From Candidatus Saccharimonadota bacterium (GTDB lineage: Bacteria; Patescibacteriota; Saccharimonadia; Saccharimonadales; Saccharimonadaceae), in the NCBI GenBank assembly GCA_001897305.1, contig MKSO01000001.1, forward strand, positions 30,001 through 62,000: a DNA stretch of 32,000 nt, written 5' to 3'. This document shows, piece after piece, positions 570-27,892 of this stretch. The position numbers were made by a program, and so were the translations under genes. Position 1 is the first letter of the stretch; every line of letters begins with the position of its first letter. Under the pieces are notes generated by a model. It was not told where the DNA came from, searched no databases, and saw only the letters and a list, made by a program, of their open reading frames with translations.

Positions 570-1739
570 TTAACCTAAGTTGTATGGAGCGTCTGCACGA
601 CTAGGGTCTAGAACTTGGGGTGCTTGCCTGCCAAATGCTACGACGTCATCACTGCCCGCTATAAGATTATAGAGGCCAACTATTCTGAAGTCGTTTTGTT
701 TGGTCCATTCGTATGTAATAACTGGATATGACGTGTCGCCGAATATGTCCTTCCCTTGAAACTCAACAGAAGCTTCGTTGTAGGTGCCATTTGACCACAC
801 AGTACCAGAGGTCTCACGTGTGATATGGTCTAGATCTCCAAGTATTGGAATTGATGGCGTAGTCGCTCCATCGAAAAGCTCAGACAAGATAGTGTGTGCA
901 TCGTGTGTAGTATTACCCGATGTATCGAGTCGTTGAGATGTCATACATGTAAGCATATCTTTTGCAATTTGAACGTATTGAGGATTAGACTTGTCGGTAT
1001 ATAGTTTGTATACAAGATTTAACCGATTCATAACAAAGTCATTAATCTTTTGTCCATCCCAAAGTTCCATTACTTCACGACGCTCAATAGGGGCTATACC
1101 GTTTGCAACGAACGTTTGCTCACACGCATATTCTTTAGTATCTGGGTCAGTATATGCGTCATTTGGGTTAACGGGGACTTTCTTGTTCTCCCAGTTGTCA
1201 AATAATGCGGTGTCAACGATAACGTTTGATGTTTGTGCCTCAGGAGTCTTTAATGGTGTACTATCAGGGGTTGGCGCGACGGCTTCAGGAGTTGTGCTTG
1301 GTGCCACAGACGCCTCACTTGTTGCTTTAGGGTCGGTTTTTGGAGGTTCATTATCTTTATTATCAGCTGCAACCTTTACTCCCACTAACGTACCACCTAC
1401 AGCTAATGCAAGTCCTGCAACACCTGCAATGATACCGTTACGTACACGGTTACTTTTTGGTGCACTTTCACCATTGGTTTTTGGTTCTGTAACAGGAGGG
1501 ATAATTGGTGGTTCGGCTACTTTAGAATCTACAACATCGTCGATTGACGGCATGTTCTCGGGAAGGGTCGCTGGACTATGAGGAATGTTATCGAGTTGAA
1601 TATCTTCGAAAGCGCGAAGAGGGGTCTCACTAAATTCTGTAGGCGGAGTTTCGCGCATCGGCTTGTCGACATTACCACTATGGCCTGCTGTTACTTCAGG
1701 TGCTTGAGAATTTTGTGGTGTTGGGTACTCTTTGTCCAT
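570..1739 (-). CDS. Bitopic membrane protein, unknown function (Pro-rich cytoplasmic N-terminus, one TM, Pro/Thr-rich linker, ~210-aa C-terminal domain)
   Basis: 389-aa ORF. TM segment GIIAGVAGLALAVGGTLVGVKVAA. SD-like AAGGAA about 10 nt upstream of ATG 1739. Hairpin follows the stop. Confidence 0.8.
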   Translation of the reverse strand: MDKEYPTPQNSQAPEVTAGHSGNVDKPMRETPPTEFSETPLRAFEDIQLDNIPHSPATLPENMPSIDDVVDSKVAEPPIIPPVTEPKTNGESAPKSNRVRNGIIAGVAGLALAVGGTLVGVKVAADNKDNEPPKTDPKATSEASVAPSTTPEAVAPTPDSTPLKTPEAQTSNVIVDTALFDNWENKKVPVNPNDAYTDPDTKEYACEQTFVANGIAPIERREVMELWDGQKINDFVMNRLNLVYKLYTDKSNPQYVQIAKDMLTCMTSQRLDTSGNTTHDAHTILSELFDGATTPSIPILGDLDHITRETSGTVWSNGTYNEASVEFQGKDIFGDTSYPVITYEWTKQNDFRIVGLYNLIAGSDDVVAFGRQAPQVLDPSRADAPYNLG

Positions 1740-1932: not shown

Positions 1933-2850
1933 CTAATGGTAAGTAAAGTTAACTTCAATGTTATTAAGAACCCTATTAATGTTATAGGTGCTAAAAATAT
2001 TCTTTAGCTCGTCGGGGGTTATGCTTAGACCAAGTTTTGAGACAATCTCCGCTTCACTAGGGTACTCATCACTTCCCTCCTCTGACTGTTGAATTGATTC
2101 AGAGAGCCTGCTACTAAAACCATGTTGTTTGATGGTGGTTAACAGTTTTTCAGCTACCTCGCCTTCATCTGTAATTTCAGTAGATTGGCGTTTATCAATT
2201 CGATATAAGTTTATATCTTTTACTTTCCCTGTTACCTCGTCATATTCAAAAGAGTCTTCGTACGTAAAGCAAAAAGAGGAACGAGTTATATCTTCTTGCA
2301 AATTACTACGAATTGCTTTACTGACTACAAGAAATAGCACAAGAAGATGGGACTTTTTTATGGCATCATCCTCGTTTATCTGAAGTGTAATTGATTGTTG
2401 AATTATACCGAATGCATCCATGTTGGCTGGCTTATATAAAATAGGATGATACTCTCGGTCGGATTGAACTAGCTTTTCAGAAGATGCCTGTTCTTTCCAG
2501 GGGGTAATTTGATATGCGTTAAGCGTTTTTAAAACCTCCGATTCATCAAGCGCGGCGATATCAACACGGTTTTCGGCCATAATTTGTAAAAGGGCACCAT
2601 TGATCGTATTGTTATTGAACTGGGGCCGAAGCTTATTTAGATTTTTAAAAAAGGATACGGCTGGTGAGGTGTAGGTCTCAATCTTAATGTATATGTATCC
2701 CTCGTAATACGAACGCGCATCGAGGTGGTAGTCAACATATGAAAAGAGGTGTTTGGCGCGTGCTTGCTCGGTAATAAAGTCGCAAAAAATATGCTCGTAA
2801 AGGTGGCCTACTTCGATGTTTGGGGCCGCTTTTGTATAAATAAGCTGCAT
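1933..2850 (-). CDS. Hypothetical cytoplasmic protein with N-terminal HxxEH motif
   Basis: 305-aa ORF with no TM segment. Motif VGHLYEHIF at residues 14-22. Extended -10 promoter lies directly upstream of the ATG. Confidence 0.75.
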   Translation of the reverse strand: MQLIYTKAAPNIEVGHLYEHIFCDFITEQARAKHLFSYVDYHLDARSYYEGYIYIKIETYTSPAVSFFKNLNKLRPQFNNNTINGALLQIMAENRVDIAALDESEVLKTLNAYQITPWKEQASSEKLVQSDREYHPILYKPANMDAFGIIQQSITLQINEDDAIKKSHLLVLFLVVSKAIRSNLQEDITRSSFCFTYEDSFEYDEVTGKVKDINLYRIDKRQSTEITDEGEVAEKLLTTIKQHGFSSRLSESIQQSEEGSDEYPSEAEIVSKLGLSITPDELKNIFSTYNINRVLNNIEVNFTYH

Positions 2851-2856
2851 GGTATT

Positions 2857-2865
2857 AGAATAACA
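2857..2865 (-). promoter_or_regulatory. Extended -10 element TGtTATTCT, 6 nt upstream of ATG 2850 (leaderless-type promoter)
   Basis: Minus strand reads TGTTATTCT-aatacc-ATG. Confidence 0.45.
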
Positions 2866-2885
2866 TTCTCTCTAGAAGTGATGTA

Positions 2886-2915
2886 GCCCCCATCGCCGAA
2901 ACCGGCGATGGGGGC
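2886..2915 (-). terminator. GC-only 13-bp perfect hairpin, no U-tract, 12 nt after the stop of the 63-aa gene
   Basis: GCCCCCATCGCCG-aaac-CGGCGATGGGGGC. Confidence 0.55.
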
Positions 2916-2927
2916 CTGTGCCGGGCG

Positions 2928-3119
2928 TTACCAGCCCCGGCGGCCGTGGTTGTTCTTGCCCTTGGTGTCGTGGGTCTTGCGGCTGTTGCCGCCGCTCCCC
3001 GACTGCCTCTTCGACTTCGGTGCGCCGAGGTTGGCCACCGCGTCGGTGAAGCTGTAGGGCTTGGAACCCGACTTCTTGTTCCCGTAGGGAGTGAAGTTCG
3101 GCTTTTTGTTCTGGCCCAT
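2928..3119 (-). CDS. 63-aa hyper-basic, Gly/Asn/Lys/Ser-rich, probably disordered protein encoded in a high-GC islet
   Basis: Internal ATG of track ORF 2928..3191. Hand translation: MGQNKKPNFTPYGNKKSGSKPYSFTDAVANLGAPKSKRQSGSGGNSRKTHDTKGKNNHGRRGW. 59 of 63 codons end in G or C. SD GGAAGGA lies 10 nt upstream and a hairpin lies downstream. The competing overlapping frames lack this GC3 signal. Confidence 0.6.
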   Translation of the reverse strand: MGQNKKPNFTPYGNKKSGSKPYSFTDAVANLGAPKSKRQSGSGGNSRKTHDTKGKNNHGRRGW

Positions 3120-3272
3120 TTTGGCCACATCCTTCCGGAAGGCAACAAATGGTGTTGCAACCACCTCTCGGCAAGAGCCTCGATTAAACAAATAATAGCA
3201 TCTATTGGAAATAAGTCAATATGGGCAGTTTACACACAAGAACATAACCTCATAATTACCTAGAAAACAAAC

Positions 3273-3301
3273 TTGCATTCTCTTTAAAAAGCTTGTACGC
3301 T
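3273..3301 (+). promoter_or_regulatory. Possible promoter of the pilin-like operon (TTGCAT-17 nt-TACGCT), 9 nt before ATG 3311
   Basis: Hexamers and spacing read directly from the sequence. The -10 is weak and alternative -10 choices exist. Confidence 0.3.
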
Positions 3302-3310
3302 ATAGACAAT

Positions 3311-3712
3311 ATGAAGATAAAACAAACAATACAGAACATTGCTGTGGTGGTAGGTATCTTATTGTTGCCGATTGTTACGGTTTTACCGACTACACCAACA
3401 CAGGCTGCGACTTGTGGGGGTGTACAGACGGCTATTATTAGTTGTGGCGGGAGTAAGGATGCGAAGAAGGCTGAAGATACTGGTCTTTGGGGTATTCTTC
3501 TTCTTGTTATAGGTATTCTGACTGCCGGCGTTGGTGTCCTAGCCCTCGCTGGTATCGTATACGGTGCTATCCTCTGGACTTCAGCCGGCGGTAGCCCCGA
3601 GCAAATTAAAAAGGCCCGTACAGTATTTACTAACGTAGTTATTGGGGTGGTAGCCTTTGGTGGTATGTACGTACTGCTTAATTTCCTGGTTCCAGGAGGG
3701 GTATTTAACTAG
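3311..3712 (+). CDS. VirB2/TrbC-like 'T4SS-pilin' family small membrane protein (paralogue 1)
   Basis: Start moved to ATG 3311 (MKIKQTIQNIAVVV...). Signal peptide ending TQAA. Cys pair TCGGVQTAIISCGG. Two TM helices flank the loop WTSAGGSPEQIKKART. Confidence 0.7.
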   Translation: MKIKQTIQNIAVVVGILLLPIVTVLPTTPTQAATCGGVQTAIISCGGSKDAKKAEDTGLWGILLLVIGILTAGVGVLALAGIVYGAILWTSAGGSPEQIKKARTVFTNVVIGVVAFGGMYVLLNFLVPGGVFN

Positions 3713-3713
3713 T

Positions 3714-4154
3714 ATGAAGAAGATCTTTCAGACCCTACTGACAGGCGGTTTGTTTATTTTCGCTATTGCGGCACCTGTTATGGCCCTTACAACACCACAA
3801 ACAGCCAGTGCTGCTGTAACTAACTGTGAAGCACGTTTCATGGGTGTTCCACCGTGGTATCGTGGGCTTACTAAAGAAAATCCTCCGACTTGTGACCTTA
3901 AAACTCCTGACGAAGTGGGTGGTATTGGTAATTACATTTGGAAGATCGTTCTTAATGGCATAGAAATGGCGATCGTTATTTCCGCTTACATTGCAGTCTT
4001 CTTTATAATGTACGGCGGTTTCTTGTTTATAACTGGTGGTGATAAGCCGGCCCAGGTAGAAAAGGCTCGCAAGACAATCCTCGATGCTGTCATTGGGTTG
4101 GTTATTGCCATGGCTGCGGTCGCGATTATTAACTTAATCTTTAGGATTATCTAG
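3714..4154 (+). CDS. VirB2/TrbC-like 'T4SS-pilin' family small membrane protein (paralogue 2, divergent subtype)
   Basis: ATG 3714 preceded by AGGAGG. Signal peptide ...ASAA. Cys pair NCEARFMGVPPWYRGL...TCD. Two TM helices flank FITGGDKPAQVEKARKT. Confidence 0.7.
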   Translation: MKKIFQTLLTGGLFIFAIAAPVMALTTPQTASAAVTNCEARFMGVPPWYRGLTKENPPTCDLKTPDEVGGIGNYIWKIVLNGIEMAIVISAYIAVFFIMYGGFLFITGGDKPAQVEKARKTILDAVIGLVIAMAAVAIINLIFRII

Positions 4155-4157
4155 CAT

Positions 4158-4448
4158 ATGAAACAGTTTTTCATTCAGTTTGCGCAAAAAGTTGATGCTG
4201 GGAGCGTAGGTATTCCAACCGGTTCTGGCGACACACTTCTTCATAATGGGTTGAATCTGGTATATTTTTTAGCAGGTCTGGTGTCTGTTATTGTTATTAT
4301 CGTCGCGGGCATTATGTATACCACTTCAAGTGGCGACGCTAGTAGGGTTACTCGTGCGAAGAACCTGCTCACCTACTCTATTGTTGGGTTAGTGGTGGTA
4401 CTGTCGGCGTTTGTTATTACTAATTTCGTTATAGGGAGTTTTAAGTAA
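4158..4448 (+). CDS. VirB2/TrbC-like pilin-family protein lacking signal peptide and Cys pair (paralogue 3)
   Basis: 96 aa. The core YTTSSGDASRVTRAKNLLTYSIVGL is nearly identical to paralogue 4, but the N-terminus MKQFFIQFAQKVDAGS is not hydrophobic. Confidence 0.65.
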   Translation: MKQFFIQFAQKVDAGSVGIPTGSGDTLLHNGLNLVYFLAGLVSVIVIIVAGIMYTTSSGDASRVTRAKNLLTYSIVGLVVVLSAFVITNFVIGSFK

Positions 4449-4829
4449 ATGAATAAAATAAAAGTAGCTCTTGTAGCCTTTGCGATGATTGTATTTGGTG
4501 GGGCGGCGTTGCTTCCAGTAACTACTGTAGGCGCATTAGACCCTCTCGCGGGTGCCTGTGCTAGTGACCCTAATGCAGAGATATGTAAAGCAAGTGGAAA
4601 GGCCGATAAACCAGATACGCTTATTAAAACACTTGTTAACACCTTACTATTCGTTGTTGGCTTGTTGTCGGTGGTGATGATTATTTTTGCAGGTATTTTA
4701 TATACCACCTCGGCTGGTGATGCCAGTAAGGTGACGCGTGCAAAGAACACCCTTACTTATTCAATTGTAGGACTGTTATTGGCGTTTCTCGCATTTGCAA
4801 TTGTTAACTGGGTGCTTAAATTGTTTTAA
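4449..4829 (+). CDS. VirB2/TrbC-like 'T4SS-pilin' family small membrane protein (paralogue 4)
   Basis: Starts on the nucleotide after the stop of paralogue 3. Signal peptide present. Cys pair ACASDPNAEIC. Core YTTSAGDASKVTRAKNTLTYSIVGL. Confidence 0.7.
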   Translation: MNKIKVALVAFAMIVFGGAALLPVTTVGALDPLAGACASDPNAEICKASGKADKPDTLIKTLVNTLLFVVGLLSVVMIIFAGILYTTSAGDASKVTRAKNTLTYSIVGLLLAFLAFAIVNWVLKLF

Positions 4830-4902
4830 TAAAGTTGTCCCAGGGGTTAACAAAACGTTAAAAATCTGCTATAACTAACCTAGATTTCAAAGAAAGGAAT
4901 AA

Positions 4903-5322
4903 ATGAAAATGAAATTATTAACGAAAAAGAAGCTGACACTATTTGTAGCTGCCTTTGCTTTAGCGGTAACAGCACTATTTGTACCAGTAGTGACAGCTAA
5001 TGCTGCATGTGATCAAAATGACCTTAGCGCACAAAGTGGTATCGACTGTGCTCAAGGTAAAGGCACCCCAACTACCCTATTTGGTGCTGGTTCAATCTTT
5101 ACTACAGTAGTAAACGTACTCCTCTTCATTATTGGTGCGATCTGTGTGATCATGCTTATCTGGGGCGGTATTCGTTACACTACTTCTGCTGGTAACTCGG
5201 CAAACGTTACAGCTGCTAAGAACACCATTATGTACGCAATCATCGGTTTGGTGATCGCCTTCCTAGCCTTCGCGATCGTGAATTGGGTACTTGGTGCAAT
5301 TACACCTTCTGGTACTGCGTAA
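4903..5322 (+). CDS. VirB2/TrbC-like 'T4SS-pilin' family small membrane protein (paralogue 5)
   Basis: Own promoter TGcTATAAC (4867-4875) and SD AAAGGAA. Signal peptide ...TANAA. Cys pair ACDQNDLSAQSGIDC. Core RYTTSAGNSANVTAAKNTIMYAIIGL. Confidence 0.75.
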   Translation: MKMKLLTKKKLTLFVAAFALAVTALFVPVVTANAACDQNDLSAQSGIDCAQGKGTPTTLFGAGSIFTTVVNVLLFIIGAICVIMLIWGGIRYTTSAGNSANVTAAKNTIMYAIIGLVIAFLAFAIVNWVLGAITPSGTA

Positions 5323-5442: not shown

Positions 5443-5907
5443 CTATTGAATTTGAATCTTCTTAGCTTGCTCTTGCTTGATCTTATTGAAGCTGATGGTA
5501 AGAACACCGTCCTTTAGTACTGCTTCAACTTCGTCTTCCTTAACGCTTACAGGTAGTGCAAGTGTACGGCTGAATTCACCCCAGTAACATTCTTGGATGT
5601 GCCAGTTGGTTGCAGCACTGTCGTCACCGCTACTTAGCGTACCGCTGATAGTAAGAATACCGTCGCTAATGCTAACGTCGAGATCTTCTTTGTTTACGCC
5701 TGCTGTACGAGCCTTTACGACAAGCTTGTCGTCAGTTTCGTATACGTCAACAGCGAGTTGACCCAAGAATTCTTCTTGGCTGTCGTCCCAGCTGTCGTCG
5801 CTCGCAGGTGCGACTGTGTCGGTTGGTGTCGTTAGGTCGTCGTCGCTCAGGAAAGCTGCTGCCAGCTCGTCTTCAATGAGCAAATCCTCGTTTGGTTTTC
5901 GGGCCAT
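5443..5907 (-). CDS. Small heat-shock protein, Hsp20/alpha-crystallin family
   Basis: Alpha-crystallin-type C-terminal half (LAVDVYETDDKLVVKARTAGV...DGILTISG...FSRTLALP...AVLKDGVLTISFNK). ATG 5907 preceded by GGAGGA. The track start at 5919 is a GTG inside the SD. Confidence 0.85.
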   Translation of the reverse strand: MARKPNEDLLIEDELAAAFLSDDDLTTPTDTVAPASDDSWDDSQEEFLGQLAVDVYETDDKLVVKARTAGVNKEDLDVSISDGILTISGTLSSGDDSAATNWHIQECYWGEFSRTLALPVSVKEDEVEAVLKDGVLTISFNKIKQEQAKKIQIQ

Positions 5908-5954
5908 GATATCCTCCACTTTTCTCTAGGCTCATTTGACAAATAGTCCTTCGT

Positions 5955-6715: not shown

Positions 6716-6803
<88 letters not shown>

Positions 6804-6841: not shown

Positions 6842-7246
6842 TTAGACGTTTGTAAACCCAGCGCCACCGCCAGGGGTAATAGCACCAAGTACCCAGTTAA
6901 CGATTGCGAATGCCAAGAAGGCAATAATAAGGCCAACAATGGCATAAAGAATGGTATTCTTGGCTGCCGTAACGTTAGAGGCATTACCGCCAGAAGTAGC
7001 ATAACGAATACCCCCGATGATAATCATAATAACCGCAAGCGCACCCGCTACAAAGAGTAGTGTATTGGTGATAGTGGTAATAACACCACTTCCGCCAAAG
7101 AGTGTACTAGGGGTGCCGTTCCCACGTGCCGCTTCAACACCTTGTTGTATGGCGCTTTGGGCCGAGGTGTTAGCGGAAAAACCCACCGTAAGCAGAGTGG
7201 CGAGTGATAGGGCTGAAATAGTGAAATAAGAAATAATTTTTTTCAT
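6842..7246 (-). CDS. VirB2/TrbC-like 'T4SS-pilin' family small membrane protein (paralogue 6, closest to paralogue 5)
   Basis: Signal peptide present. Core RYATSGGNASNVTAAKNTILYAIVGLIIAFLAFAIVNWVLGAITPGG. No Cys pair. Promoter TGcTATAAT on the minus strand at 7272-7280. Confidence 0.75.
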   Translation of the reverse strand: MKKIISYFTISALSLATLLTVGFSANTSAQSAIQQGVEAARGNGTPSTLFGGSGVITTITNTLLFVAGALAVIMIIIGGIRYATSGGNASNVTAAKNTILYAIVGLIIAFLAFAIVNWVLGAITPGGGAGFTNV

Positions 7247-7443: not shown

Positions 7444-7536
7444 GGAGGAGTACCCAAGTGGCTGAAGGGGACGGTTTGCTAAATCGTTAGTCTGGGGAGA
7501 CCCGGAGCCGGAGTTCGAATCTCCGCTCCTCCGCCA
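7444..7536 (+). tRNA. tRNA-Ser (anticodon GCT), CCA encoded
   Basis: Acceptor GGAGGAG/CTCCTCC, anticodon stem ACGGT/ATCGT with loop TTGCTAA, long variable arm, T-loop GTTCGAATC. Confidence 0.9.
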
Positions 7537-9611: not shown

Positions 9612-9688
9612 GCACCCGTAGCTCAGCTGGATAGAGCGTCGGCTTGCGGAGCCGAAGGCCATAGGTTCGAATCCTGTCGGGTGTACCA
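9612..9688 (+). tRNA. tRNA-Arg (anticodon GCG), CCA encoded
   Basis: Hand fold: acceptor GCACCCG/CGGGTGT (G1-U72), D-arm GCTC-AGCTGGATA-GAGC, anticodon stem TCGGC/GCCGA with loop TTGCGGA, T-loop TTCGAAT. Confidence 0.85.
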
Positions 9689-10407: not shown

Positions 10408-10495
10408 GGAGAGGTGCAGGAGTGGTTGAACTGGCCGCTCTCGAAAAGCGGTAAGGCGCAAGCCTTCGAGGGTTCGAATCCCTCTCTCTCCGCCA
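10408..10495 (+). tRNA. tRNA-Ser (anticodon CGA), CCA encoded
   Basis: Acceptor GGAGAGG, anticodon stem CCGCT/AGCGG with loop CTCGAAA, long variable arm, T-arm GAGGG-TTCGAAT-CCCTC. TGcTATAAT lies at 10389-10397. Confidence 0.9.
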
Positions 10496-25264: not shown

Positions 25265-25356
25265 GGAGGAGTGGCCGAGTGGTTGAAGGCGCACGCTTGG
25301 AAAGCGTGTGTATGCAGCAATGTGTACCGTGAGTTCGAATCTCATCTCCTCCGCCA
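25265..25356 (+). tRNA. tRNA-Ser (anticodon GGA), CCA encoded
   Basis: Acceptor GGAGGAG/CTCCTCC, anticodon stem CACGC/GCGTG with loop TTGGAAA, long variable arm, T-loop TTCGAAT. Confidence 0.9.
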
Positions 25357-25447: not shown

Positions 25448-27892
25448 ATGGTTAAGAACTGGAAAAGCGGCTTTACGCTGGTTGAAGTTATTATAGTTAT
25501 TGTCATTATTGGTATCCTTGCTACGATTTCAGCCCTAGGGATTAATAGCTTTCTTGCGCAATCTCGTGATGGAAAGCGTCTTGCAAGTGTTACTACAATT
25601 AGCGAGGGCCTTGAAAAGTACTTTAACCAAAATGGTGAGTACCCAAGTTGTTCAGTTTTATCAACAAACGCCGCGGCTATATTTGGTGATATTAGTAGTG
25701 ATGCCTTAGCTGCGCCACGCGACACTGCAACTAACTCCCTAGACTGCAGCACGCTCACCTTGACTGGGCGCGACTTTTACCAGTACCAGGGTGACGGAAG
25801 TGTTACGTGCCAAGAAGGTTTGGCGTGTCTTACGTACAAGTTGCTATATCGAAGCGAGTCGGAAAAAAAGTTAGTTGAAATTAACAGTCGTCGAAGCGTT
25901 TCTATCTCAACGTCGGGCATTCCTGATATTTCGGCAAGGGGCACGAGCTTTGATAAAATTACGGCTGGTTGGAATGCGGTCCTGAATGCGACGGGGTATA
26001 CGCTTCAGGTTTCAAAAAATGCCTCTTTTACTAACATCGTAGAAACAAAATCTATTCAAGCGTATTCTTGGGTGGCAAGCGGGCTTTCGTATGACACGAC
26101 ATACTATTTCCGAGTTCGGGCAGAATCAGCAACGGGTAGCGGGCAGTGGTCGGCTACTGCAACCGCTGACACAAAAGCACTTACTCAACCAACGGGCTTA
26201 GTGGCGAACGCACAGAGCTTTACGCAAATAAATACCTCGTGGAATGCTGTGTCGGGTGCGACGGGATATCAGCTTCAAGTGGCGAAAAACGCAGCGTTTA
26301 GCGATAGTTTACAAACACTTACCTCTACGGGTACTTCTACAAACGTAACTGCGCTTTCGTACAATACCGCTTACTACTTTAGGGTGAGGGCTACGTGGAT
26401 TAGTAATACTGGCCCATGGTCGAGTGTTATTAGTGAGGTAACAAATTCACTAGCTGCTCCTCAGTCGCTTATGGCAAGCGCCGATAGTAAGACGCAAGCG
26501 ACCGCTACGTGGAAGGCGGTAACTGGCGCTACTAGCTACCAGCTCGATAGGTCAACCACGAATACATTTACTTCAGGGACGACTACTTCTATAACAGACA
26601 TCACTTCTGTTTCTCGTGCTATTACGGGATTGTCCCCTGGTGTCACGTACTATTTACGCGTTAAGGCTGTGTGGAGTGGTAACAGTAGCTCGTGGTCTAA
26701 TGTAGCAAACGTTACAACATATCCGGCTAATCCAACCAACGTTGCTTTGACGGCGTCTATGAGTGGTACAAATGCCGTTGGGCAAGCTAGTGCCGATTGC
26801 TCCGTTGGGCAAGTACGCTATCAATTTAGTACGATGAGCACAAACACCTCTACTGATGGTACTTACGCCACTGGGAGTTGGACGGCCGCTGATACAAGTA
26901 CAAAACCTGCCTCTCAAGGCTATAAATATGGTTTTAAAGTCTCAGCAAAATGTGTGGATGGCTCACGGGAGAGTGACGAAGTAGCGGTAGGCCCTAAGAC
27001 GACGGTACGGCCAATTAATGCGCCTGGGAAGCCAACCATTTCTAAGTCTGCATCTGGAACCCATGGTGCAGCCGATACTGTAACGTGGTCGTGGGCTTCG
27101 AGTTGTCCTAGCGGAACATCTACGAAATATTCTAGTGCATACTACCGCGACGACAGTACTGGATGGAGGGGTTGGACTGATAAGGGCACGGCGACCTCGC
27201 AAGCCCAAACAACAGCACTTCAGGGGTGGCAGTATGCCGTTAAGGCGAAGCTTACGTGTTTCACACCGTACGACACATCCGATAGCCCCGAAAGTGACTC
27301 CGTAAGCTATATACGAGACGTGGACCGACCTGCTAAACCAACTGGCTTTCATGTAGAGCGCAAGGATATGGGTCGCTACGATTCTGGTATGGCTTACTGG
27401 GACGGTGTTCCTACGTGTGGTACTGGGCTTAAGCGAGTGTTCCGGACATATAATCAGAATGCGCATATTATTGACAATGCCGGTGTTGGTCAAGCAAGCG
27501 CGGGCGCCTTCACGATTTGGATATTCATGACCGATGCATCAACCCCAAGAGATGAGAGTTTGTTTATTGGTGCTGATGGCGCGATGCGTCAGTCGTATAT
27601 GTGGAAAACAGCCTGGGAGGACAAGCTTCAATCAGTGTATCGTGGTGGCTATGATAATTTTAATCCATCGAGTTGGGAGCGCTCTAACCCGACTACAGAA
27701 GGCAATACAGCATGGCTTGACTGGGCCCCTTCGGCGAGTTCGCGTGCTTGGATTGTTGATACACCATCCGCGTCATATGGGGAGTCTCACCTTAAACAAC
27801 TTCGTGTCTATATTCGCTATGCCTGCTACAACGATACGACGAAACGCTATGCTGGCGGAGAACCAGGTATGAGTATTTATCAGTACTTCTAA
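25448..27892 (+). CDS. Giant modular type IV pilin: prepilin N-terminus plus pilin head, 3 FN3 repeats, 2 Cys-bridged beta-sandwich-like modules and a Trp-rich C-terminal domain
   Basis: Class III signal MVKNWKSG|FTLVEVIIVIVIIGILATI (Gly-1, Phe+1, Glu+5). Three ~90-aa repeats share W(N/K)AV.GATGYQLQ...(L)S..T.YYFRV(R/K)A...S.WS. Confidence 0.85.
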   Translation: MVKNWKSGFTLVEVIIVIVIIGILATISALGINSFLAQSRDGKRLASVTTISEGLEKYFNQNGEYPSCSVLSTNAAAIFGDISSDALAAPRDTATNSLDCSTLTLTGRDFYQYQGDGSVTCQEGLACLTYKLLYRSESEKKLVEINSRRSVSISTSGIPDISARGTSFDKITAGWNAVLNATGYTLQVSKNASFTNIVETKSIQAYSWVASGLSYDTTYYFRVRAESATGSGQWSATATADTKALTQPTGLVANAQSFTQINTSWNAVSGATGYQLQVAKNAAFSDSLQTLTSTGTSTNVTALSYNTAYYFRVRATWISNTGPWSSVISEVTNSLAAPQSLMASADSKTQATATWKAVTGATSYQLDRSTTNTFTSGTTTSITDITSVSRAITGLSPGVTYYLRVKAVWSGNSSSWSNVANVTTYPANPTNVALTASMSGTNAVGQASADCSVGQVRYQFSTMSTNTSTDGTYATGSWTAADTSTKPASQGYKYGFKVSAKCVDGSRESDEVAVGPKTTVRPINAPGKPTISKSASGTHGAADTVTWSWASSCPSGTSTKYSSAYYRDDSTGWRGWTDKGTATSQAQTTALQGWQYAVKAKLTCFTPYDTSDSPESDSVSYIRDVDRPAKPTGFHVERKDMGRYDSGMAYWDGVPTCGTGLKRVFRTYNQNAHIIDNAGVGQASAGAFTIWIFMTDASTPRDESLFIGADGAMRQSYMWKTAWEDKLQSVYRGGYDNFNPSSWERSNPTTEGNTAWLDWAPSASSRAWIVDTPSASYGESHLKQLRVYIRYACYNDTTKRYAGGEPGMSIYQYF
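25916..26719 (+). repeat. Three tandem FN3-like coding repeats (aa 157-424 of the pilin)
   Basis: Repeat cores: ITAGWNAVLNATGYTLQVSK...YYFRVRAESATGSGQWS; INTSWNAVSGATGYQLQVAK...YYFRVRATWISNTGPWS; ATATWKAVTGATSYQLDRST...YYLRVKAVWSGNSSSWS. The DNA copies are well diverged. Confidence 0.8.

What the first reader, a model, noticed from the sequence alone, without database searches (positions are those of the whole stretch)
2886..3186. 300-bp high-GC islet carrying a self-contained 63-aa polycationic gene with foreign (high-GC-type) codon usage
Composition: by hand count, 2941-3060 is 81/120 = 67.5 % G+C. The flanks 2821-2880 and 3241-3300 are 38 % and 32 %. Four long overlapping track ORFs pile up here, which is the signature of stop-poor high-GC DNA. 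Coding frame: only one frame (minus, ATG 3119 to TAA 2928) has G or C at the third position in 59 of 63 codons. In that frame Lys is 9 AAG and 1 AAA, and Asn is 7 of 7 AAC. It has its own SD (GGAAGGA). Twelve nt after the stop comes a perfect 13-bp GC-only hairpin without a U-tract (2886-2915), the terminator style common in high-GC Actinobacteria. Product: 14 K/R against 2 D, with 10 Gly and 7 Asn and no hydrophobic core, so it is probably a disordered nucleic-acid- or envelope-binding polycation. Position: the islet is wedged between the extended -10 promoter of 1933..2850 and the promoter region of the pilin-like operon, and disrupts neither. Interpretation: if this genome is a Saccharibacteria-like epibiont, whose cultivated hosts are high-GC Actinobacteria, this is a candidate recent single-gene host-to-epibiont transfer that has not ameliorated. 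I do not recognise the protein.
Basis: partly seen in the sequence, partly recalled or inferred. Interest (0 to 1): 0.75.

Follow-up and report, generated by a model that had tools for sequence, protein, structure and literature searches.

The report
Conserved GC-rich small basic-protein gene
The GC-rich patch is a real gene for a tiny, highly basic, disordered protein that many Saccharibacteria keep next to a miniature zinc protease, and its odd G/C-ending codon usage looks actively maintained rather than left over from a recent transfer from a high-GC host.

Summary
Window 2886-3125 is 65% G+C, the highest 240-bp stretch in a 46% window. The minus-strand ORF 3119..2928 (63 aa) has G or C at the third codon position (GC3) in 59 of 63 codons. 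Other ORFs average 0.43 and never exceed 0.65.

The "recent, un-ameliorated host-to-epibiont transfer" reading is only partly supported.
- The genome is a Saccharibacterium (47-87).
- Homologues do exist in high-GC Actinobacteria: mycobacterial plasmids or mobile elements, plus a 63% and a 71.5% GC contig of unconfirmed taxon.
- The same GC-rich gene, with the same promoter, structured leader and GC hairpin, sits directly upstream of the same roughly 300-aa gene in at least 12 divergent Saccharibacteria.
- Between these copies, 4-fold sites differ by 40-60% while 2-fold sites differ by only 0-10%. Third positions have turned over yet stayed G/C.
- The window's nearest relatives are Saccharibacteria (96%, 78% and 76% nt identity), not Actinobacteria (66-70%).

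The neighbour (1933..2850) is a compact M16-like zinc peptidase with an invariant HLYEH...E motif. The family has no Pfam, NCBIfam, PDB, PHROG or PADLOC match.

My best guess is an abundant nucleic-acid-binding polycation made from a stabilised mRNA and processed or cleared by its cognate peptidase. Function and the cause of the GC3 bias remain untested.

The parts
3192..3219 (-). Sigma-70-like promoter of the small gene: TTGACT, 16-nt spacer, TG-extended TATTAT. The inferred transcription start is near 3185.
   Evidence: 10 of 12 matches, with TG before the -10. Four promoter-like sites were found in the region against 0.9 expected. A TTGACA/TATAAT-like pair at the same distance is visible in L001, L005, L008 and L017. 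The transcription start is inferred, not mapped.
3120..3185 (-). Structured 5' leader (53% G+C against 30% upstream). It has a hairpin GCAACA/UGUUGC (3158-3153 / 3147-3142). It also has a palindrome CCUUCCGGAAGG (3142-3131) that pairs the Shine-Dalgarno GGAAGGA (3136-3130) with an upstream anti-SD.
   Evidence: An equivalent SD-sequestering mini-hairpin occurs in L001 (UUCCCGAAAGGAA), L002 (CCUUCCGAAAGG) and L005/L006 (UCCUCUCGAGAGGA). The first hairpin shows compensatory changes in L034 (GCAGCG/CGCUGU). A regulatory role is inferred.
2928..3119 (-). Coding sequence of the 63-aa polycationic protein (pI 10.9, net charge +12). It carries the family's conserved C-terminal core QSGSGGNSRKTHDTKGKNNHGRRGW. 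GC3 is 0.94.
   Evidence: There are about 120 clusters at 90% identity and 20 representatives at 50%. In low-GC relatives the motif is kept while synonymous codons vary freely (AAA/AAG, CAC/CAT, ACA/ACC/ACG), which shows protein-level selection. AF2 predicts disorder.
2886..2915 (-). Perfect 13-bp GC-only hairpin, 12 nt after the stop. It is a terminator or 3' stabiliser without a U-tract.
   Evidence: A strong hairpin directly after the stop is present in nearly all family loci folded (weak in L039 and L007). Relatives keep GCCCCC...GGGGGC ends with compensatory changes in the middle, and classical U-tracts follow in low-GC relatives.
2851..2885 (-). Spacer carrying the partner gene's own extended -10 (TGtTATTCT, 2865-2857). 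It lies 6 nt before ATG 2850 with no Shine-Dalgarno, so the partner mRNA is probably leaderless.
   Evidence: Read directly. TATTCT-N6/7-ATG recurs in L033 and L001. This is inferred; no transcript data exist.
1933..2850 (-). Conserved partner: a 305-aa acidic (pI 5.0, net -15) compact M16-like zinc metallopeptidase. It has invariant H16-L-Y-E19-H20 and E93. Its composition is native (GC3 0.38).
   Evidence: AF2 gives pLDDT 90.9 and pTM 0.88. All 50 listed Foldseek PDB hits are M16-family chains (peptidases or homologous bc1 core subunits), with E as low as 8e-8 and probability 0.96-1.00 but TMq only 0.21-0.33. The gene lies immediately downstream of the small gene in W, L001/3, L002, L005, L006, L008, L011, L017, L026/27, L033 and others. 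There is no Pfam, NCBIfam or PDB sequence hit.

Best explanation
The islet is one complete transcription unit, running from the promoter-proximal start near 3185 to the hairpin at 2886. It carries a long-resident Saccharibacteria gene.

Shown:
- The gene encodes a 63-aa, strongly basic, intrinsically disordered protein. Its conserved part is a C-terminal motif of about 19 residues, (G)QDSRKVHDTKGKNxHGRxxW.
- The gene is paired with a compact M16-like zinc peptidase gene that starts about 75 nt downstream.
- The G/C-ending codon usage has been maintained over long evolutionary time in many, though not all, lineages.

Inferred:
- The protein is an abundant nucleic-acid-binding polycation. It would coat or plug ribosomal RNA or DNA, in the manner of very small ribosomal, hibernation or SASP-like proteins.
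- The neighbouring peptidase is acidic and belongs to a fold class specialised for short unstructured basic peptides. It processes or removes the polycation.
- The GC-rich body is bracketed by 5' hairpins, a strong but partly masked Shine-Dalgarno and a very stable 3' hairpin. Together these make a nuclease-resistant, long-lived, translationally gated mRNA.
- The mycobacterial plasmid copies are secondary acquisitions from Saccharibacteria.
For: Coding and conservation: the family was recovered by three independent searches. The motif is invariant, while synonymous sites vary freely in low-GC relatives.

Conserved pair: tblastn and HMM searches find the partner immediately downstream in every partner-type locus.

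Partner fold and motif.

Charge complementarity: the small protein has pI 10.9-12.0, and the partner has pI 4.7-6.6 in 8 of 9 loci.

Disorder.

Transcription-unit anatomy: promoter, leader and hairpin. G+C profile is 0.30 upstream, 0.53 leader, 0.62 CDS, 0.72 in the 3' 50 nt, then 0.39.

Maintenance of GC3:
- 4-fold sites differ 40-60% against 2-fold sites 0-10% across copies.
- Between W and L033, synonymous differences are 3/56 in the small gene against 368/777 in seven flanking genes (p = 3e-11).
- The non-coding parts of the islet are more diverged: 18/108 against 3/56 (p = 0.05).

Not a general expression-linked codon bias: rplL and rplJ have GC3 of 0.39 and 0.58 next to a small gene at 0.84 in L002.

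Direction of transfer.
Against: - No expression, binding or cleavage data exist.
- The family is rare and patchy. Only 20 pattern matches were found in 185,579 species genomes, and only 13 partner homologues. It is not a core gene, as a ribosomal protein would be.
- Other subfamilies lack the M16-like partner. Oral and gut Saccharibacteria have a Cys4-knuckle N-terminus and a different roughly 110-aa neighbour, and Actinobacteria have none. The peptidase therefore cannot be essential to the core function.
- Partner-linked copies in genomes of at most 41.5% G+C have ordinary GC3 of 0.33-0.43. High GC3 is therefore not required for function.
- Extra mRNA folding of the CDS beyond composition is seen only in W (z = -4.4) and L017 (z = -3.8), not in six other copies.
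- Foldseek TM-scores to M16 structures are low (0.21-0.33), and no sequence profile links the partner to M16.
- The near-identity of synonymous sites between W and L033 could also reflect a recent allele exchange between Saccharibacteria.
Confidence: 0.45

Rival explanations
1. One reading: a recent single-gene transfer from a high-GC actinobacterial host into this Saccharibacterium. On this view the donor's codon usage has simply not yet decayed.
For: - The composition is extremely atypical.
- Full-length homologues exist in Mycobacteriales on mobile DNA and in other high-GC contigs.
- The family is patchy in Saccharibacteria.
Against: - The same GC-rich gene lies at the same position, upstream of a native-composition partner, in about a dozen divergent Saccharibacteria.
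- 4-fold sites are near saturation while 2-fold sites stay G/C.
- The best actinobacterial match is only about 57-61% aa (BLASTP) and 66-70% nt, against 96/78/76% nt to Saccharibacteria copies.
- There are no direct repeats, integrase or tRNA at the borders.
- The GC-rich tract coincides with the transcript, not with an insertion scar.
Confidence: 0.05
2. Ancient acquisition or repeated allele exchange. The GC-rich allele entered an ancestor of environmental Saccharibacteria from Actinobacteria. Alternatively it circulates among Saccharibacteria by homologous replacement. Its low synonymous divergence (W against L033) would then reflect recombination rather than constraint.
For: - W and L033 differ at 3/56 synonymous sites in the small gene against 47% in the flanks.
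- GC3 is bimodal among partner-linked copies.
- The family is shared by the two phyla.
- Some loci look like flexible genome. L001 is flanked by restriction-modification and ImmA-like genes.
Against: - Exchange alone does not explain why 2-fold sites stay G/C while 4-fold sites turn over.
- The leader, the stop-to-hairpin spacer and the hairpin inside the islet are more diverged than the synonymous sites (15-33% against 5%).
- L005 and L006 share a nearly identical native leader.
Confidence: 0.2
3. RiPP-like or secreted cationic peptide. The small ORF is a precursor, and the M16-like peptidase releases the conserved C-terminal peptide of about 20 residues. That peptide then acts outside the cell, for example on the host bacterium.
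For: - A precursor-sized ORF sits next to an M16-type peptidase, as in PQQ and subtilosin clusters (established knowledge).
- The conserved part is confined to one end.
- The window's copy lies beside a type IV secretion pilin cluster.
Against: - No signal peptide, exporter or modifying enzyme accompanies the pair.
- The pilin neighbourhood is not conserved. L002 lies between rplJL and dnaX.
- Many family members have no peptidase.
- The product would be an unmodified, highly hydrophilic peptide.
Confidence: 0.12
4. The GC3 bias is ordinary translational selection. On this view a very highly expressed gene uses the genome's optimal (C- or G-ending) codons.
For: - All NAY codons are NAC, and Lys is AAG.
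- A tRNA-Ser(CGA) that reads only UCG is encoded nearby.
- The promoter and SD are strong.
Against: - rplL (GC3 0.39) and rplJ (0.58), adjacent to the small gene in L002, are not G/C3-rich.
- HSP20 and the pilin genes in the window are at 0.37-0.49.
- The leader and 3' region are also GC-enriched.
- Codons such as TCG, CCG and GGG are rare in the window's other genes.
Confidence: 0.1
5. The region is a structured non-coding RNA gene or an assembly chimera, and the ORF is fortuitous.
For: - High G+C in a lower-GC genome is typical of structural RNAs.
- The whole transcript folds far better than shuffles (z = -7.9).
Against: - No Rfam family reaches threshold, even at E <= 10, and there is no tRNA or tmRNA.
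- The amino-acid motif is conserved across relatives with different codons.
- CDS folding z-scores are near zero in most copies.
- The islet recurs in independent assemblies.
Confidence: 0.03

Closest known systems
M16 (pitrilysin/insulinase/MPP) zinc peptidases and their short basic, unstructured substrates (e.g. mitochondrial presequences; PqqF/PqqL)
   Same: - The partner has the inverted zinc motif HxxEH at the start of the first long helix, and a Glu 73 residues downstream.
- It has a two-lobed alpha/beta fold that Foldseek assigns only to M16-family structures.
- The adjacent gene product is a basic, disordered peptide of fewer than 70 aa. From established knowledge, M16 chambers accept this substrate class.
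   Different: - It has only 305 aa, against about 420 or about 900 for known M16 enzymes.
- No Pfam PF00675/PF05193 or PDB sequence match was found.
- TM-scores are low (0.21-0.33).
- Catalysis and substrate are untested.
Very small lineage-specific ribosomal proteins (mycobacterial bL37 and bS22, Thermus THX) and ribosome- or DNA-coating dormancy proteins with a dedicated protease (Bacillus SASPs and GPR)
   Same: - Size, extreme basicity and disorder.
- A strong monocistronic transcription unit.
- A subfamily with a Cys4 zinc-knuckle alongside Cys-free forms, as in C+/C- ribosomal protein pairs.
- A superficial motif resemblance between RKxHxxKxxNHG[KR]R and bL37 (MAKRGRKKRDRKHSKANHGKRPNA).
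- A dedicated protease next door, echoing SASP and GPR.
   Different: - The profile comparison with bL37, bS22 and THX gives 0-4 bits, so there is no detectable homology, and no PDB chain matches.
- The family is rare and patchy rather than core.
- GPR is not an M16 enzyme.
- No ribosome or DNA association has been shown.
Hydrophilins, LEA group 1 proteins and KGG-repeat stress proteins (GsiB, YciG)
   Same: Gly-rich (16%), highly hydrophilic and disordered. The GGNSRKxxxxxG stretch loosely recalls the GGQTRKEQLG repeat (own knowledge).
   Different: There is no Pfam KGG or LEA_5 hit even at E <= 10. The protein has a single motif rather than repeats, and it is basic rather than acidic or neutral.
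Compositionally atypical horizontally acquired islets
   Same: A sharp G+C and codon-usage discontinuity confined to about 300 bp. Homologues occur in a different, high-GC phylum on plasmids.
   Different: The locus is orthologous and syntenic across divergent relatives. There are no mobility features. The bias is maintained while 4-fold sites turn over.

Membership tests
Recently acquired, un-ameliorated horizontal-transfer islet | Composition and codon usage atypical for the host genome | tested here: met
   GC3 is 0.94 against 0.43 +/- 0.08 in the other ORFs. The islet is the highest 240-bp G+C stretch in the window.
Recently acquired, un-ameliorated horizontal-transfer islet | Absent from the orthologous site in related genomes | tested here: not met
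   The gene is present immediately upstream of the orthologous partner gene in L033, L002, L001/3, L005, L006, L008, L011, L017, L060, L062, L040 and others.
Recently acquired, un-ameliorated horizontal-transfer islet | Near-identical homologue in the proposed donor clade | tested here: not met
   The best actinobacterial copies are about 57-61% aa (BLASTP) and 66-70% nt identical. Saccharibacteria copies are 76-96% nt identical.
Recently acquired, un-ameliorated horizontal-transfer islet | Synonymous sites not yet substituted (no time to ameliorate) | tested here: not met
   4-fold sites differ 40-60% between GC-rich copies, while 2-fold sites differ 0-10%.
Recently acquired, un-ameliorated horizontal-transfer islet | Mobility signatures at the borders (direct repeats, integrase, tRNA target) | tested here: not met
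   The only repeat is the terminator hairpin. There is no tRNA within 3.5 kb, and the neighbours are a peptidase and pilins.
Peptidase family M16 (partner gene 1933..2850) | Inverted zinc-binding motif HxxEH | tested here: met
   H16-L-Y-E19-H20 is invariant in 13 homologues and in nine loci.
Peptidase family M16 (partner gene 1933..2850) | Third zinc ligand Glu about 70-77 residues downstream, in a helix | tested here: met
   E93 is invariant, lies 73 residues after H20 and sits in helix 80-94 of the model.
Peptidase family M16 (partner gene 1933..2850) | M16 alpha/beta two-lobe fold | tested here: inconclusive
   All 50 listed Foldseek PDB hits are M16-family chains (peptidases or homologous bc1 core subunits). 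E-values reach 8e-8 and probability is 0.96-1.00, but TMq is 0.21-0.33 and rmsd 16-19 A.
Peptidase family M16 (partner gene 1933..2850) | Match to curated sequence models (Pfam PF00675/PF05193, NCBIfam) | tested here: not met
   No family was found at E <= 1 (Pfam) or E <= 0.1 (NCBIfam). There is no PDB sequence hit at E <= 10.
Peptidase family M16 (partner gene 1933..2850) | Zinc-dependent peptidase activity on the neighbouring small protein | not testable with these tools
   This needs biochemistry.
Ribosomal proteins bL37 / bS22 / THX | Detectable sequence homology | tested here: not met
   The family profile against bL37, bS22 and THX, with filters off, scores 0.1-4.4 bits. The profile against all PDB chains gives 0 hits at E <= 10.
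Ribosomal proteins bL37 / bS22 / THX | Physical presence in the ribosome | not testable with these tools
   This needs ribosome purification or cryo-EM from a cultivated Saccharibacterium.
RiPP biosynthetic cluster | Precursor peptide adjacent to a maturation protease | tested here: met
   The small ORF lies about 75 nt upstream of the M16-like gene.
RiPP biosynthetic cluster | Modifying enzyme and/or exporter conserved in the neighbourhood | tested here: not met
   The neighbourhoods differ between loci and contain no such genes.
Known structured RNA families (Rfam 15) | Covariance-model match | tested here: not met
   Nothing reaches the gathering score. The best match at E <= 10 is 17 bits against a 34-bit threshold.
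Canonical intrinsic terminator | GC-rich hairpin followed by a U-tract | tested here: inconclusive
   The hairpin is present (13 bp), but there is no U-tract in the window. U-tracts follow the equivalent hairpin in low-GC relatives, and partial ones follow in L002, L005, L006 and L017.

The most novel reading that the evidence does not exclude
A single tiny gene in mid-GC Saccharibacteria is kept as a 'codon island': GC3 of 0.8-0.98 across exactly one transcript. Selection at the RNA level would have held it there for far longer than synonymous sites take to saturate.

On this reading the transcript is a storage-stable, translationally gated mRNA for a previously unrecognised polycationic factor. 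That factor coats ribosomes or DNA during host-free or dormant phases. A dedicated miniature M16 peptidase removes it on reactivation.

The same factor has been exported from epibiont to host lineages, and now rides on mycobacterial plasmids.
Probability: 0.15. Interest if true: 0.75.

Novelty: new variant of a known kind. Interest (0 to 1): 0.55.

Why it matters
Saccharibacteria have tiny genomes, and most of their lineage-specific genes are unexplained. This work defines three things:
- An unannotated and often mis-called small-protein family. Gene callers pick the antisense ORF or add false N-terminal extensions.
- A conserved partnership of that family with a new, miniature M16-like peptidase.
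- A clean natural example of a gene-specific codon and G+C bias that is maintained rather than inherited from a donor.

The last point is a caution for composition-based detection of horizontal transfer. It is also a tractable case for asking what selects on synonymous sites, such as mRNA stability or gated translation.

The family is shared between Saccharibacteria and mycobacterial plasmids. This adds a concrete candidate for gene flow between epibionts and the Actinobacteria they live on, probably in the direction opposite to the one first proposed.

Tried and rejected
- **Known RNA families and tRNA/tmRNA.** Nothing was found.
- **Curated protein libraries.** Pfam, NCBIfam, PHROGs, PADLOC and PDB sequence searches of the small protein, the partner and the 110-aa partner of type-2 loci gave no credible hit.
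- **Homology to bL37, bS22 or THX.** I recalled a motif resemblance to mycobacterial bL37 and verified the bL37 sequence. The profile scores only 0.1-4.4 bits against bL37, bS22 and THX, so I rejected homology.
- **Overlapping or antisense gene as the cause of the open frames.** Stop counts equal those of synonymous shuffles, and the frames are not conserved.
- **Conserved mRNA structure in the CDS as the cause of GC3.** Significant z-scores occur only in W and L017, so I rejected this as a general explanation.
- **Phage origin.** There is no tblastn hit in 50,697 phage records.
- **Correlation of small-protein and partner divergence.** The partner is saturated at 22-31% identity, so this was uninformative (Spearman -0.04).
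- **Taxonomic naming of the short MKPNKQAS-type high-GC members.** The sources carry no names. Only G+C (71.5%) and gene context are available.
- **Literature searches.** Searches for a Saccharibacteria small ribosome-associated protein, or for this transfer, found nothing specific.
Full report

Yes. The hand counts reproduce exactly.
- G+C is 67.5% for 2941-3060, 38% and 32% for the two flanks, and 62.5% for 2886-3186.
- The 240-bp window 2886-3125 is 65% G+C. It is the top of the whole 32-kb window, which has mean 46%, sd 4% and a runner-up of 56.7%.
- The minus-strand ORF 3119..2928 encodes 63 aa with GC3 = 59/63, Lys AAG 9 : AAA 1 and Asn AAC 7/7.
- GC1 (0.44) and GC2 (0.52) are unremarkable, so the anomaly sits in third positions.
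- Against 7,553 sliding 63-codon windows from the 31 other ORFs (mean 0.43, sd 0.078, max 0.65), the gene is about 6.5 sd out.
- The hairpin is a perfect 13-bp inverted repeat with a 4-nt loop, 12 nt after the stop. No U-tract follows it.

The several long ORFs in other frames are a by-product of the composition. Their stop counts equal those of synonymous-codon shuffles, and the frames are not kept open in relatives.

**2. What is there?**

The islet has the anatomy of one transcription unit.
- A sigma-70-like promoter, TTGACT-16-TGcTATTAT, lies at 3219-3192 on the minus strand.
- A leader of about 66 nt (53% G+C) follows.
- Within the leader, a palindrome CCUUCCGGAAGG pairs the Shine-Dalgarno GGAAGGA with an anti-SD.
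- Then come the CDS and the GC-only hairpin.
- G+C rises at the inferred transcription start and falls right after the hairpin: 0.30, then 0.53, 0.62 and 0.72, then 0.39.
- No Rfam family, tRNA or tmRNA matches.

**3. The ORF is a real gene.**

Homologues were found by three searches: 10 proteins, 20 representatives at 50% identity among 1.8 billion proteins, and about 120 clusters at 90% identity with a profile.
- The source genome is Candidatus Saccharibacteria bacterium 47-87.
- All members share a C-terminal core, (G)QDSRKVHDTKGKNxHGRxxW/Y/F. Their N-termini differ.
- In oral and gut Saccharibacteria the motif is kept while codons vary freely (AAA/AAG, CAC/CAT, ACA/ACC/ACG, GGC/GGT). That is the signature of selection on the protein.
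- AlphaFold2 predicts disorder (pLDDT 60, pTM 0.15).
- No Pfam, NCBIfam, PHROG, PADLOC or PDB sequence match exists.

**4. The neighbour is part of the unit.**

In fact it lies immediately downstream of the small gene in every partner-type locus examined. These are L001/3, L002, L005, L006, L008, L011, L017, L026/27, L033, and most low-GC metagenome loci.
- The partner proteins are only 22-31% identical in most pairs (47% for L005-L006, 56% for W-L033).
- The partner has an invariant GHLYEH motif and an invariant Glu 73 residues later.
- Its model is confident (pLDDT 90.9, pTM 0.88).
- All 50 listed Foldseek PDB hits are M16-family chains, such as FusC, TTHA1265, PqqL, MPP, pitrilysin and IDE. 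E-values reach 8e-8 and probability is 0.96-1.00. TM-scores are low (0.21-0.33), and no sequence model detects the relationship.
- I therefore call it a compact M16-like zinc peptidase. I do not call it an established M16 member.
- It is acidic (pI 4.7-6.6 in 8 of 9 loci), while the small protein has pI 10.9-12.
- It appears to have its own extended -10 (TGtTATTCT) 6 nt before the ATG and no SD. This suggests a leaderless mRNA.

**5. Is it a recent, un-ameliorated transfer from Actinobacteria?**

Evidence in favour:
- Full-length homologues occur in Mycolicibacterium canariasense, next to an IS3 transposase and a resolvase.
- They also occur on a 23.7-kb MOBF plasmid of M. aubagnense, where the gene is unannotated.
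- They occur in Mycobacteroides abscessus and in a roughly 19-kb plasmid-like contig seen in 23 assemblies.
- More distant members lie on a 63% G+C contig with a DUF2690 protein, which suggests but does not confirm an actinobacterium, and on a 71.5% G+C chromosomal-looking contig of unknown taxon.

Evidence against:
- (a) The gene is GC-rich (GC3 0.70-0.98) at the orthologous site in about a dozen divergent Saccharibacteria whose flanks are 38-52% G+C.
- (b) Among these copies, 4-fold-degenerate sites differ by 40-60%. That is about the saturation level if only C and G are allowed. 2-fold sites differ by only 0-10%. Third positions have been substituted many times but are kept G/C. This is the opposite of 'no time to ameliorate'.
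- (c) Between the window and its closest relative L033 (same HSP20, five pilins, small gene, peptidase synteny), synonymous sites differ at 3/56 in the small gene against 368/777 in seven flanking genes (p = 3e-11). Against HSP20 alone the count is 37/122 (p = 9e-5). The leader, spacer and hairpin inside the islet are more diverged, at 18/108.
- (d) The window's gene is 96%, 78% and 76% nt-identical to Saccharibacteria copies but 66-70% to the mycobacterial ones.
- (e) The mycobacterial copies are a shallow clade (82-100% identical). They lack the partner, sit on mobile DNA, and have Saccharibacteria sequences as nearest outgroups at about 70%. That suggests acquisition from Saccharibacteria.
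- (f) No repeats, integrase or tRNA mark the borders.

A remaining alternative is that the 4-fold divergence accumulated in high-GC donors and was followed by many independent, site-specific insertions. It is very unparsimonious given the conserved leader, hairpin and partner. I could not exclude an old inter-phylum transfer, or allele exchange among Saccharibacteria.

**6. Why is GC3 maintained?**

This is unresolved. Five possibilities were tested.
- It is not a general expression-linked bias. rplL and rplJ next to the small gene in L002 have GC3 of 0.39 and 0.58, against 0.84 for the small gene.
- It is not a specific conserved CDS fold. z-scores are -4.4 in W and -3.8 in L017 but near zero in six other copies.
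- It is not an overlapping gene.
- It is not universal. Partner-linked copies in genomes of at most 41.5% G+C (L026, L035, L055, L057, L059) have GC3 of 0.33-0.43. Others in equally AT-rich flanks (L040/58/69, L060) have 0.80-0.92.
- The enrichment covers the whole transcript, and the transcript is bracketed by 5' hairpins and a very stable 3' hairpin. The whole-transcript MFE is -149.6 kcal/mol with z = -7.9.

I therefore favour selection for a nuclease-resistant, long-lived and translationally gated mRNA. This is inference.

**7. Mechanism proposed.**

Shown: a conserved, disordered polycation gene with its own promoter and terminator, and a conserved adjacent M16-like peptidase.

Inferred:
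- The polycation binds nucleic acid, either ribosome/rRNA or DNA.
- The acidic peptidase processes or clears it. From established knowledge, this fold class acts on short unstructured basic peptides.

Caveats:
- The family is rare and patchy. There were 20 pattern matches in 185,579 species genomes.
- Other subfamilies have a Cys4 knuckle and a different roughly 110-aa partner, or no partner at all.
- A motif resemblance to mycobacterial bL37 (sequence verified) has no statistical support.

**8. Verdict.**
The phylum guess and the existence of high-GC homologues hold. 'Recent, un-ameliorated, wedged-in' does not.
- The locus is an uncharacterised small-protein and mini-M16 module with a selection-maintained codon island. 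I rate it a new variant of known kinds, of moderate interest.

Noticed in passing
L033 2653-2925 (-); P0001, P0002, P0037; plasmid NZ_CP122998.1 11110-11298: Gene callers mishandle this family. An antisense 90-aa ORF is called over the small gene in L033. Several database entries carry false N-terminal extensions read from the GC-rich leader. The M. aubagnense plasmid copy is not annotated at all.
   Followed up: partly
window 2851-2865 (-) and ATG 2850: The M16-like gene has TGtTATTCT 6 nt before its ATG and no Shine-Dalgarno. TATTCT-N6/7-ATG recurs in L033 and L001, which suggests a leaderless mRNA.
   Followed up: partly
window 3311-5322 (+), 6842-7246 (-), 5443-5919 (-): Five tandem paralogues of type IV secretion pilin (PF18895) lie here, with a sixth on the other strand and an HSP20 gene between them. 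The same HSP20, pilin, small gene and peptidase order is kept in L033, where a TrbL_3 gene follows.
   Followed up: partly
window 6716-6803, 7444-7536, 9612-9688, 10408-10495, 25265-25356: ARAGORN finds five tRNAs. They include all four tRNA-Ser anticodon types (UGA, GCU, CGA, GGA) and tRNA-Arg(GCG). Rfam at gathering score lists only three of them, missing Ser-GCU and Ser-CGA.
   Followed up: no
L004, L028-L032: An almost identical roughly 19-kb mycobacterial-plasmid-like contig turns up in 23 assemblies. It carries ParA, a RES toxin, a resolvase and the small gene. The assemblies include TARA ocean metagenomes and a MAG labelled Acidimicrobiaceae. This looks like mis-binning or a widespread contaminant.
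   Followed up: no
L009, L010, L013, L016, L020 (about 4125-4460 in each): In oral and gut Saccharibacteria the small protein has an N-terminal Cys4 knuckle (C-x9-C-x-C-x2-C). It is followed by a different conserved protein of about 110 aa with no match in any library.
   Followed up: partly
L034 about 2840-3010: This is a GC-rich small ORF upstream of a partner homologue (P0037). Its C-terminal motif is degenerate (...THHDTIKGNRGQGGGKLR). It may be a decaying or divergent copy, and its leader hairpin shows compensatory changes relative to the window.
   Followed up: no
window 25448-27892 (+): An 814-aa protein with an N-terminal prepilin methylation motif and fibronectin type III domains. It looks like an unusually large pilin-like surface protein.
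   Followed up: no
window 570-1739 (-): A 389-aa Pro/Thr-rich protein lies downstream of the peptidase gene. It is only 25% identical to its positional counterpart in L033, although neighbouring genes are 77-94% identical. It is a very fast-evolving gene.
   Followed up: no
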